A stretch of 64,000 nt of DNA from Octopus vulgaris (taxonomy: Eukaryota): the NCBI GenBank assembly GCA_951406725.2, contig OX597821.1:59024001-59088000 (forward strand), in the 5' to 3' direction. This document shows, piece by piece, positions 2,481 to 55,593 of the stretch (its first letter is position 1; every line of letters starts with the position of its first letter). Made by a program: the position numbers and the translations under genes. Below the pieces are notes generated by a model, which was given only the letters and a program-made list of their open reading frames with translations, was not told the origin of the DNA and made no database searches.

Positions 2481-2546
2481 GTAGACCAGACCTGGTTTCA
2501 GGCTGTTTCTGCCACTCTCCGGTACTGGACACCTCGTCTGCTAGAG
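2481..2546 (-). ncRNA. degenerate hammerhead-like motif inside a ~270 bp GC-richer element (2312-2582)
   Basis: Minus strand reads CAGACGA-ggtgt...acagcct-GAAA-ccag gt ctgg-UC. The core has U4>A and helix I is poor. Confidence 0.3.
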
Positions 2547-2744
2547 ATGGCAGTAGCTTGCCTCTGCTCGCAATATCGACTGTTATATATATATATATAT
2601 ATATATATATATATATATATATATACATTGACGTCTTTATTCAAGGCGATGCCCCAGCATGACCACAGTAAAACTACTGGAGCAAGGAAAAGAAGATATA
2701 TATTCTTTTATGCTTTTATGTTTCATCCCTAAGGCTGTGGCCAT

Positions 2745-3245
2745 GATGGAGCCCCACCAGTATGATCACCTTTTCAATGGCTAATCTTATGTGATTGGCT
2801 TTTGATGAAGGAGGGAGTCCGACACTGCTGCACTCTTTTGAGTTTCCAGACTTGATATTGGTTCATCTGGGACCTTGGATAGCAAGAGGTCAAGTTGTTT
2901 CTTGAAAACATCTACCCCTACTCCATGAAGATCCCGCATATGTTTTAGGAAGGCATTAAATAGTTGTGGACCCTTTAATCCCAAGTTATTGTAGTACATG
3001 GTCTTCACTCTAGACGAGATAGCTGGGAACTTTGGAACAGTGCAGTGACATCCTGTTCAGAGGCTGGCATAGCTTACAATACCAAAGTTTGGTGCCAGCC
3101 CCTCCAGGATCTCCTGTACACATCTCACTGCATACCTCTCCCGCCTTCCCTCCAGGGAATAGAGTCATAGCTCTTTCAGTCTCAACCAGTAGCTCAGCTG
3201 TTCCATTGATGCAATCTTCTTGGTTTAGCACTGCTGAACTGCTTC
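2745..3245 (-). mobile_element. 3' fragment of a CR1/Jockey-group LINE (RT C-terminal region), degraded
   Basis: Minus-strand translation across frameshifts gives ..LYSLEGRRERYAV..ILEGLAPNFGI.. and GPQLFNAFLKHMRDLHGVGVDVFKKQLDLLLSKVPDEP, typical of LINE ORF2 C-termini. Confidence 0.75.
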
Positions 3246-3414
3246 AAGTTCTGCTATTATACATGCATACATACATAAATACATACATACAAATGTTCAT
3301 ACATACATACACACATATGTAAACACACACACACACACAGATGTACATATATAGATTAATGCATATGCACACACATGTATACTTGTGTGTGTGTGTAGAT
3401 ATATTTATATATGT

Positions 3415-3805
3415 AGGTGCAGGCTTGATTGTATGGTAAGAAGCTTGCTTCCCAACCACATGGTTCCAGGTTCAGTCCCATTGTGTGGTACTTTGGGCAA
3501 GTGTCTTCTACTATAGCTTCAGGTTGACCAAAGGCTTGTGAGTGGATTTGGTTGACGGAAACTGAAAGAAGCCCGTCATATGTGTGTGTGAGTGTGTATT
3601 TGTGTGTCTGTGTTTGCCCCCCCCATCACTTGACAACCAATGTTGGTGCATTTATGTCCCTGTAACTTAGCGGTTCGACAAAAGAGACCGATAGAATAAG
3701 TAGTAAGCTCACAAAGAATAAGTCCTGAGATTGATTTATTCGACGTAATTGCTGCAGCATGGCCGCAGTCAGACGACTGACATAAGCAAAAGAATAAAAG
3801 AATAA
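3415..3805 (+). mobile_element. tRNA-derived SINE family A
   Basis: Full head, core and tail (GTAACTTAGCGGTTCGACAAAAGAGACCGATAGAATAAG...CAGCATGGCCGCAGTC). Confidence 0.85.
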
Positions 3806-3889
3806 AAACGTATGCATGTGTATTGGCACACCGTTACATATGTATGAATATGAATACACACATACATACTAGAATGAATATACATACAT

Positions 3890-4285
3890 TGGTTTCAAAT
3901 TTTGACTCAACAACAGCAATTTTGGGGGAGGGGATACGTTAATTACATCGACCCCCTGTACTCCACTGATGCTTATTTTATTGATCCCAAAATGATGAAA
4001 GGCAAAGTTGACCTCGGTGGAATTTAAACTCAGAACATAAAGAGGACAAAATGCCACTAAGCATTTCGCCCAGCATGCTAACAATTCCACCAGTTTGCCA
4101 CCTTGATAGATACACATATATTCTTTTCTACTCTAGGCACCAGGCCTGAAATTTTGGGGGAGGGGGCCAGTCAATTAGATCGACTCCAGTACACAACTGG
4201 TACTTAATTTGCCAACCCTGAAAGGACAAAAGGCAAAGTCGACTTCAGCAGAATTTGAACTCAGAACGTAAAGAAAGACAAAATA
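3890..4285 (-). mobile_element. two tandem SINE family B copies
   Basis: Two reverse-complement copies of GAGTTCAAATTC..GTCGACTTTGCCTTT..GTACCAG..CCCCCAAAATT. Confidence 0.8.
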
Positions 4286-52040: not shown

Positions 52041-52427
52041 TATCTGCCAAAGCTGCCCGCATAACGAGGTATGAAAAGCGTATTTTGCCTTTCATCCTTT
52101 TGGGATCGATAAATTAAGAACCAGTTGAGTATTGGGGTCGATGTAATCGACTATCCCCTTTCCTCCAAATTTCAGGCCTTGTGCCTATAGGAGAAAAGGA
52201 TTATTATTATTATTAAGGCGGTGAGCTGGCAGAGTCGTTAGCACGCTGGGTGAAATGCTTAGTGGTATTTCACCCAAGGGACAGTAGGTTTGCAGAAGTG
52301 GACGGTGATGGACTTGTTTTTTATTGCAAAGTTTTTTTGTCTCTACATTCTGAGTTCAAATTGAGTATGGGTGAATCTCAACTTTCTTTCCACCAGGGGT
52401 TGATAAAATAAGAAATAATCATATGTC

Positions 52428-52830
52428 GGTGCAGGAGTGGTTGTGTGGTAAGTAGCTTGCTTACCAACCACATGGTTCCAGGTTCAGTCCCACTGCATGG
52501 CACCTTGGGCAAGTGTCTTCTACTATAGCCTCAAGCTGACCAAAGCCTTGTGAGTGGATTTGGTAGACGGAAACTGAAAGAAGCCTGTTGTACATATATA
52601 TATATATTATGTGTGTATGTGTTTGTATATCTATGTTTGTCCCCCCCACCATTGCTTGACAACTGATGTTGATGTGTTTACGTCCCCGTAACAAAGCAGT
52701 TCAGCAAAAGAGACTGATAGAATAAGTACTAAGCTTACAAAGAATAAGTCCTGGGGTTGATTTGTTCAACTAAAGGCGGTGCTCCAGCATGACCACCACA
52801 GTCAAATGACTGAAACAAATAAAAGAATAA
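52428..52830 (+). mobile_element. SINE family A
   Basis: Full head, core and tail; preceded by two SINE-B pieces at 52086-52415. Confidence 0.85.
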
Positions 52831-52967
52831 AAAAAATCCCACACAAACTAATCAACAGCCCCTCCCCCCATCTTTTTTTTAAAACTTGGTCTTGTGTTAA
52901 GTCAAAAGATATTCTTATAATTTTTGATGTTAAATTATAAACTAAATGTTTTTATGTTTAATTTCAG

Positions 52968-53506
52968 GAAAGATCTCGTCCCTGCTCTCGATGTAGCCAG
53001 TCATCAAGTGTATTAAGTAATTCCCCAAAGACAGACAAACTGAGGGGTCATAAACTATCAGGATATTCCTACTCTCCTAACCACAATAACAACAACCACA
53101 ATAACAATAACAACAACAACAATAACAACAGCAGTAATGATGTTCACAGCATTACTCCTGTGATTAATAAACTCGCTGATAGCCCCACATCTCCCAGTCG
53201 GTTTCGTGCCTCCAAGTATGCTACAACACAGCCCAATTCATCAACAGAACCATCCCCTAAAACCTTACACAATGGCATTATCACACAAGCAATTATTCAT
53301 CATCCTCCTGATTCACGGCCAAACTCTACTGACCTCCCACCTGAATCTCCCACCAGCCTCTGTGATGTTCCGGCTGACGTATGTTCTCTTACTGAGTCCT
53401 CTTCTTCGGATCGACCAAGTGAAGAATTGACCGATGACGGTCATAAACGAAAGGATTCTTTACCAGAAATTGTATCAAAGCCAATACCACATTTGCCAAA
53501 ATCTAA
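52968..53506 (+). CDS. CAP-Gly domain protein exon (ERSRPCSRC...poly-Asn...HLPKS), Ser/Pro-rich
   Basis: TTTCAG acceptor and AA|GTAAGT donor; 539 nt open frame, phase 0 to 2. Confidence 0.85.
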
Positions 53507-53899
53507 GTAAGTTGCTATCAAATATTTGTTATAATTCTAATTAAGAGCTGTTATTAATTGCTTGCCAAATCTTGAGTTGTTCTCAATAATACTCATAAAT
53601 ACTTTTCACCATCATCATCATCATCATCATTATTATTGGTGAAGGCACATGACCTAGTGGTTAGGATGTTGCACTCATGATTGCAACAAGGTTGAGAGCC
53701 ATATCAGGCTTCATTGTCTTCTTTGGCATGGTTTCCACAGTTGGATGCCTTTCTTAATGCCAACCACTTTACAAAGTGTATTGAGTGCTTTTTACATGGC
53801 ACCACCATATATATATATATATATATATATATATATATATATATATATATATATATATATATATGTGTGTGTGTGTATGTATATATATCTATATATATT

Positions 53900-55593
53900 A
53901 TCTGAAATGTACAGTATTATATATCCATAACAGCTGATCTTACCAATCAATTTCACACAAGGAATACAATGGAGTGTTAGGTAACAGTCTGATTATATAA
54001 CCTTACACTCGTCAGAGTTAGCCAATATGGAAAGGAAAATAGTGGCTACTCTTTTTGGTGACTACTCTATATTGTCAGAGGTGGATTAACACAACCAGTT
54101 TGTGGTTACTATGGAAAAGGTGGTGAAATGGTATGCTGTGATCTTGAAGTGTTTGTAAGGAAAGTGTGCATTAAGTGTGGTACTCATGTAGGGATGTGTG
54201 ATATGTGTAGTGATGTCATGTGCATAATGTTTTTCCAGGGGTGTAGGTGTATATAGTTGTGTTTGTTTGTCTGTTTTCTTTCTGTATTGGTTAAGATCAA
54301 GGAGGGTTTTATGTTAGTGTGCAGTGTGTAATATATGTGTGGAGATACAATGTGTGTGAAGGGGTATATGTTGGGGGTGGTAGGAGACAATCTATTTTGT
54401 TGGGTGTGCATGTGTGTACATGGGTGCATTAGTGTGTGCTTTGGTCAAACTCTTTGCTGGGCCCAAGGGCATTGTTGGAAGGTCAAGGCTGGGGACCTGT
54501 AGTTGCAGTCATGGTGGGGCCTGCAGGTCTGATAGGATTACTTCCTTTCATGTGGGCAAGGATGAAACCTGCTATCCGGGTACCCTTTAAAATTGCTCTC
54601 TTCTCAGCCAGGCACAACCTGCACTTTATGCTGTACTCTGTGGCATTTTCTTTCAAAGACCAAACATGCTAGGTTAGGGTTGTGACATTACGTCACTCCA
54701 GGATGTTGAAGGAGGACTTGTGGTCATTAAAGTGGGTTCTGAATAGTCTTCTGTTGCCCCCACAAACTTCTGCACACTAGGTTGCTCATTGGGTCCTATG
54801 GCTGTTACCTCTGCTTTGTATACAACTGTTTCTGTATTACAGTGTCTGTTTAATGGACAAATTGTGTTACCCCTGCATGAGCATCCTGCCTCTGCTTCAA
54901 GTTTAGGCCTACCTACTAAAATCTTTTTTACACTAGGTTCACAGCTAAAGGATATTCTCAGGGTATGTCTATTAAATATTTTGTTGAATCTATTAGTATG
55001 GGGGAAGTGTTTATAAACTAAACTAAAGAAATCTTACCTTCTCTGGTCTTAACATTTAAATAGAAGGGTGGTTTGAACCACAGCACTTTCTGATGGTGCT
55101 TTCTCTTGATGGGGTTAAAGTCTGGTATGTAACTAATACTATCCTTGAAACCGCTGGCAGCCAGAGCCCAGTTGCAGTACAGAGCAGTAACATCCAAGAT
55201 CTCTTTGCTTGAAGACCAGCTGGAGATTCTCCTGCTGACAACCTTAACCAGGTTTCTGAACACTATGGCTGGATGGCAGGAACCTGTGTCAATGTATGAA
55301 AGCTTCTCATTTGGTTTCCTAAAGGGTCTATAGGCACTAGATTCTAGATCCAGGGTCACATCAAGGAAATCTACTGTTTTCAGGTTGGTTCCTATTGTGA
55401 CCTTCAGTCCAACAGAGTTCATGGTGAAGTTCTTTCTGAGCCTATCTAGTATCTGGCCATTAGCCCCTCTTGATATTGCCAGCACAGCATCTCTGTAGAG
55501 GCCAAAGCAAGTTGAAGGGAATTTCTTTTTTAGTATATCTAGGATGAAGAGACCAATCAGGTCACATACATCAGCACTGTCGAAGGCACCCAT
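53900..55593 (-). mobile_element. Penelope-like element, 5'-truncated and dead
   Basis: RT C-half MGAFDSADVCDLIG..GLYRDA (YRDD mutated)..VDFLDVTLDL..YRPFRKPN..HP. Downstream CPLNRHC..VVYKAEV..KFVG is a GIY-YIG-like region. Hammerhead-like motif at the 3' end, next to (TA)n. Confidence 0.9.
53933..54022 (-). ncRNA. hammerhead-ribozyme-like motif in the Penelope 3' terminus
   Basis: Minus strand reads gctaact-CTGACGA-gtgtaagg...ccttgtgt-GAAA-ttgattgg-TA-agatcagc. Stems are eroded in a CpG-decay pattern. Confidence 0.6.

What the first reader, a model, noticed from the sequence alone, without database searches (positions are those of the whole stretch)
2481..54022. Dispersed set of six hammerhead-like ribozyme relics tied to Penelope-type inserts in (TA)n tracts
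Seen: CUGAnGA...GAAA...UH arrangements with supporting helices at 2481 (-, mutated core), 20018 (+, tandem), 24687 (-), 27861 (-), 40753 (+) and 53933 (-), each with different stem sequences. Five lie within about 50-350 bp of a (TA)n run, two of them within SINE-A internal microsatellites. One lies at the 3' end of a recognisable Penelope RT/GIY-YIG element. Known: Penelope-like elements carry hammerheads in their terminal repeats, often with palindromic helix III, and favour AT microsatellites. Inference: roughly one ribozyme relic per 10 kb, from several families, with SINE-borne microsatellites serving as landing pads. Some may be non-autonomous retrozyme-like RNAs.
Basis: partly seen in the sequence, partly recalled or inferred. 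Interest (0 to 1): 0.75.

Follow-up and report, generated by a model that had tools for sequence, protein, structure and literature searches.

The report
Hammerhead relics of Penelope-type retroelements
All six motifs are worn copies of hammerhead-ribozyme folds carried by six different high-copy jumping repeats that end at TA-type microsatellites; two are tails of a known class of Penelope-like elements, two are protein-free tandem repeats likely copied by the same enzymes, so this is known biology at a high density (estimated one per 20-40 kb), with RNA cutting untested.

Summary
Observation largely confirmed. Each of the six sites belongs to its own dispersed repeat family (hundreds to >1,000 candidates), and each family consensus has a perfect type I hammerhead core with different, complementary stems and a palindromic helix III. 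Sites 24687 and 53933 are 3' ends of Hydra-clade Penelope-like elements (PLEs), already described in Octopus with hammerhead and (TA)n target. Sites 2481 and 40753 are old non-coding head-to-tail units (361 and ~318 nt), i.e. non-LTR retrozymes, with PLE-type inverted insertions. Parents of 20018 and 27861 stay unassigned. On 800 kb of grid-sampled genome the descriptor gave 24 hits versus 3.1 in shuffles, 18 within 350 nt of (TA)6 (background 36%): about one per 20-40 kb, roughly 70,000-130,000 genome-wide. Corrections: 20018 is one ribozyme with a long domain II, not a tandem; SINE microsatellites are not preferred targets; copies at 2481 and 40753 have broken cores. Cleavage and circles are untested. 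The scan had already found other, younger retrozyme families, Hydra hammerheads and the short-end/long-end rule elsewhere in this genome; I confirmed that rule in two families here. New members of known kinds.

The parts
2315..2576 (-). F1: 5'-truncated copy (261 nt) of a 361-nt head-to-tail non-coding unit (non-LTR retrozyme); ends at the family's short 3' end in (TG)n, (TA)21 at 2584-2625 on its 5' side
2478..2528 (-). F1 type I hammerhead, helices I and III fully paired, core CCGGAGA (U4C inherited in a sublineage, A6G private); cleavage position after 2484
19751..19940 (+). SINE left half and its (TA)14; no right half found nearby
19995..20324 (+). F2: 3' end of a PLE-type family, parent unassigned; long 3' end followed by (TA)/(TATG)n
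20018..20123 (+). F2 single hammerhead, 77-nt domain II, palindromic helix III, core intact; cleavage position after 20118
24139..24295 (+). SINE left half; its internal (TA)25 at 24304-24353 received F3
24354..26239 (-). F3: 5'-truncated 3' UTR (17.5% GC, with a 270-bp internal duplication) of an AT-rich Hydra-clade PLE; young (93-98% to best relatives)
24686..24781 (-). F3 hammerhead, 69-nt domain II, core intact, one helix III pair broken in this copy; cleavage position after 24690
26276..26470 (+). SINE right half, split from the left half by F3
27815..27968 (-). F4: short arm with hammerhead (27957-27862; core intact, first helix I pair broken; cleavage position after 27867) ending at +50 in (TA)29; parent unassigned
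27969..27989 (+). inverted 21-nt piece of the F4 long 3' end (+206): PLE-type head-to-head junction
40682..40917 (+). F5: copy of an old (70-79% between copies) ~318-nt tandem non-coding unit, second retrozyme-like family; followed by (TATG)n(TG)n
40759..40803 (+). F5 small hammerhead, helices intact, G12A at 40785 (catalytic base lost)
53896..55610 (-). F6: 5'-truncated, frameshifted Hydra-clade PLE (RT end, CxCX5C linker, C-terminal GIY-YIG region, 3' UTR) ending in (TA)n at 53808-53895
53937..54019 (-). F6 hammerhead, 54-nt domain II, core intact, CpG-decayed helices; cleavage position after 53941, 45 nt from the 3' end

Best explanation
The six motifs are decaying genomic copies of type I hammerhead folds carried near the 3' end of six repeat families that end at TA-type microsatellites; two families are Hydra-clade Penelope-like elements, and two are non-coding tandem retrozymes that are likely copied by the same reverse transcriptase/endonuclease, probably from a ribozyme-cut and re-joined circular RNA. 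Steps: (1) shown: conserved core with family-specific complementary helices; RT-EN coding upstream for F3 and F6; head-to-tail 361-nt and ~318-nt units for F1 and F5; fixed 3' ends at microsatellites, variable 5' ends, head-to-head inverted arms with one short and one long 3' end. (2) inferred: the ribozyme (palindromic helix III, likely working as a dimer) cuts the precursor to unit length, the ends are ligated, the endonuclease nicks (TA)n, and RT primes at a family-specific site downstream of the cut and runs across the junction, sometimes more than once round; priming from both strands would give the two-armed insertions. (3) inferred: after insertion the copies decay neutrally and have no host role.
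For: Consensus cores perfect in 6 of 6 families, helices differ but pair; architecture matches the published Hydra table: extra base after A9 and before GAAA, short palindromic helix III and Cervera & de la Pena 2014. F6 protein: 41 of 56 residues identical to Hydra-1_Obim around RT motifs 4-5, counted by eye; CxCX5C linker in F6 and F3, DKT motif in F3. F1: 56 distinct loci, 36 longer than one unit, 15 spanning two cleavage positions, longest 909 nt, 23 with an inverted arm, 3' ends at +161-174 and +218-239 (set is biased towards long copies); longest ATG frame 53 codons, circular fold z=-8.2. F5: two hammerheads 318 nt apart in L395 and the 3'-end profile upstream of the ribozyme in L069. 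Microsatellite within 20 nt of 3' ends: F1 31 of 58, F2 24 of 28, F4 57 of 74, F6 21 of 36, background 13%. Short/long pairing: F1 8 of 9 classifiable (23 inverted loci), F4 15 of 15 classifiable (23 pairs). Genome grid: 24 versus 3.1.
Against: No cleavage or circle is shown. Every insertion spans the cleavage position, which fits a circle but equally an uncut multimer. No sequence link between F1/F5 and a particular autonomous partner was found; Naiads and other PLE clades in the genome also target (TA)n. No coding region was found upstream of F2 or F4. F3 breaks the Hydra norm of <3 kb (about 2.4-kb UTR) and its helix I is weak. A weakened U4C core was inherited by 6 of 21 copies of one F1 sublineage versus 0 of 24 in the other and is fixed in a young Hydra family, so full ribozyme speed may not be needed. 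Clade assignment rests on motifs and identity, no tree.
Confidence: 0.78

Rival explanations
1. The elements are PLE-mobilised, but the template is an uncut linear multimer from a tandem master copy; the hammerhead is a slow or dispensable passenger.
For: All insertions span the cleavage position; U4C lineages spread; Naiads thrive without canonical hammerheads and Craig et al. suggest hammerheads may parasitise PLEs; PLE ribozymes cleave poorly in vitro and 8 of 9 Xenopus retrozyme dimers did not cleave.
Against: Six families, plus some 20 more motifs on the grid with mostly unrelated stems, keep the full core; no long F1 array appeared among the 40 best matches to a dimer, longest 2.5 units; U4C is known to keep enough activity in a viroid.
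Confidence: 0.2
2. F1 and F5 are not independent retrozymes but partial-tandem terminal repeats of ordinary coding PLEs whose long copies were not sampled.
For: PLEs form partial tandems; F3 looked non-coding until followed 2 kb upstream; searches score only 40 candidates.
Against: Upstream of an F1 unit lies another F1 unit, up to 2.5 rounds, in 36 of 56 loci and no collinear Hydra coding sequence in the 30 loci tested; same pattern, on fewer copies, for F5.
Confidence: 0.08
3. Some window copies were kept by the host as working intronic ribozymes.
For: Four of six copies keep the 11 core letters; site 53933 seems to lie in an intron (exon-like frame ending at a GTAAGT near 53507).
Against: Window copies are as diverged from consensus as their relatives; two cores are broken and three others have broken helix pairs; intact cores are common among relatives anyway (14 of 39 to 19 of 23).
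Confidence: 0.03
4. Chance motif matches in AT-rich repeat DNA.
For: No Rfam hammerhead hit; one equally scoring window hit (38534) is single-copy.
Against: Family consensuses restore perfect cores and helices; 14 versus 0.25 at score >=12 on independent DNA.
Confidence: 0.01

Closest known systems
Hydra clade of C-terminal-endonuclease PLEs, incl. Hydra-1_Obim of Octopus bimaculoides (Craig et al. 2021, PMC8557442; passages, section 11, supplement part 2 and search passages read)
   Same: RT then GIY-YIG, CxCX5C linker, DKT, sense-strand hammerhead near the 3' end with extra bases flanking helix II and short palindromic helix III, (TA)n target, 5' truncation, inverted arms
   Different: F6 and F3 are other families with other ribozyme sequences; domain II 54-77 nt rather than about 12-25; F3 is about 5 kb with a 2.4-kb AT-rich UTR; one-sided tails of about 60-155 nt rather than the 30-40 bp given for PLEs
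Metazoan non-LTR retrozymes (Cervera & de la Pena 2020, PMC7229834, passages and section 14 read; Li, Clavereau & Pollet 2026, 10.64898/2026.07.22.740005, parts 1-3 of 5 read)
   Same: 170-400-nt non-coding head-to-tail units with one type I hammerhead, strongly self-paired; proposed PLE dependence
   Different: F1 and F5 are old, dispersed, mostly 0.5-2.5 units, from a cephalopod (not in either main text); they carry PLE insertion scars directly; no circle or cleavage shown here
Minimal PLE hammerheads (Cervera & de la Pena 2014, PMC4209133; parts 1-2 of 4 read)
   Same: many consensus families per genome, mostly solo motifs from truncated copies, opposite-strand pairs, palindromic helix III; circular template already proposed there
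   Different: estimated 70,000 or more per genome here versus about 2,000-9,000 reported there with a stricter descriptor (not directly comparable)

Membership tests
Type I hammerhead ribozyme | Core C3 U4 G5 A6 N7 G8 A9, G12 A13 A14, A15.1-U16.1, H17 in order | tested here: met
   6 of 6 family consensuses; window copies 2481 (U4C, A6G) and 40753 (G12A) fail, four pass
Type I hammerhead ribozyme | Helices I, II, III pair, with different sequences between families | tested here: met
   helix I of F3 weak (2-3 pairs next to the core)
Type I hammerhead ribozyme | Self-cleavage after H17 | not testable with these tools
   needs an in vitro assay
Type I hammerhead ribozyme | Match to an Rfam hammerhead model | tested here: not met
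   no hit at E<=10; long domain II and decay are the likely reasons
Hydra-clade PLE (F3, F6) | RT followed by C-terminal GIY-YIG endonuclease | tested here: met
   order excludes Naiad/Chlamys; Pfam gave no hit on the decayed window frames
Hydra-clade PLE (F3, F6) | CxCX5C linker | tested here: met
   CSCRGNTIC in F6, CTCRDKTKC in F3 (definition)
Hydra-clade PLE (F3, F6) | DKT and RWK motifs | tested here: inconclusive
   DKT present in F3, KWK in place of RWK; F6 window copy is truncated before these
Hydra-clade PLE (F3, F6) | Sense hammerhead near the 3' end; (TA)n insertion | tested here: met
Hydra-clade PLE (F3, F6) | Generally short (<3 kb; a tendency, not a strict rule) | tested here: inconclusive
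   F3 is at least 4.7 kb; F6 full length not determined
Hydra-clade PLE (F3, F6) | Placement in the Hydra RT clade; CCHH absent | not tested
   no tree; reference sequences compared by eye only
Hydra-clade PLE (F2, F4) | Coding region upstream of the ribozyme | tested here: inconclusive
   no Hydra-like hit upstream in 20+25 loci of 1.5 kb, 5 longer loci and 6 further 4-kb stretches; copies are short
Non-LTR retrozyme (F1, F5) | Head-to-tail units of 170-400 nt, one type I hammerhead each | tested here: met
   361 nt; about 318 nt, clear in 2 loci
Non-LTR retrozyme (F1, F5) | Non-coding, strongly self-paired unit | tested here: met
   F1: longest ATG frame 53 codons, 69% paired, z=-8.2; not computed for F5
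Non-LTR retrozyme (F1, F5) | Two consecutive units with complete ribozymes (active by Li et al.) | tested here: inconclusive
   15 of 56 F1 loci span two cleavage positions but both cores were not scored; copies are about 86% identical to consensus
Non-LTR retrozyme (F1, F5) | Accumulates as circular RNA | not testable with these tools
   only assembled contigs of runs not on record as RNA were available
Naiad/Chlamys PLE | N-terminal endonuclease, no canonical hammerhead | tested here: not met
   F3 and F6 have the endonuclease after RT and canonical cores

The most novel reading that the evidence does not exclude
This genome holds on the order of 100,000 hammerhead fossils from dozens of families, including successive generations of retrozymes (318-nt, 361-nt, and younger ones), all written into (TA)n by Hydra-type enzymes that copy a ribozyme-closed RNA circle from both strands of the cut, one strand priming at a long and the other at a short family-specific end; the insertions would be a readable record of the unresolved PLE integration mechanism.
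Probability: 0.35. Interest if true: 0.65.

Novelty: new member of a known kind. Interest (0 to 1): 0.38.

Why it matters
It adds two cephalopod retrozyme families and two Hydra PLE families, and shows that Rfam-type scans miss a very large hammerhead population (est. 70,000-130,000 in 2.8 Gb). The retrozyme copies carry PLE insertion scars (TA target, inverted arm, one long and one short end), direct genomic support for a mobilisation route that papers mostly infer, and the fixed ends give concrete predictions for an in vitro PLE integration assay. The window copies themselves are relics with no sign of host function.

Tried and rejected
Rfam scan: no hammerhead. Pfam on window frames: nothing for the PLE pieces. 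Tandem ribozyme at 20018: rejected. Extra descriptor hit at 38534: single copy, chance. F3 as a short non-autonomous element with a defined 5' end: rejected, that end belongs to a duplicated subfamily and other copies run on into RT-EN. F4 'defined 5' end': was the inverted long 3' end. My early recalled guess of Naiad for site 53933: wrong, domain order and motifs are Hydra. SINE preference: not found. Search for parents of F2 and F4: no result; the longest F2 copies sit in one amplified composite with a G12C core. Expression: no RNA holder listed; contigs of three guessed-RNA runs laid on an F1 dimer covered it only thinly, mostly as one copy inside a longer contig, no circular joint listed; this is no evidence either way. 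A young F1 subfamily: only 9 exact matches to a 35-letter core pattern. Look-up of F1 among earlier findings by sequence: none. Literature: 'hammerhead, retrozyme, Octopus' and 'octopus, hammerhead ribozyme' returned only Craig 2021 as relevant (others seen as listings only); the 2026 O. vulgaris repeat annotation (PMC13282606, passages) has no 'ribozyme' in its main text; a twin-priming search gave nothing on PLEs (listings only). The supplement of PMC7229834 could not be read and bioRxiv supplements are closed; either may list cephalopod retrozymes.
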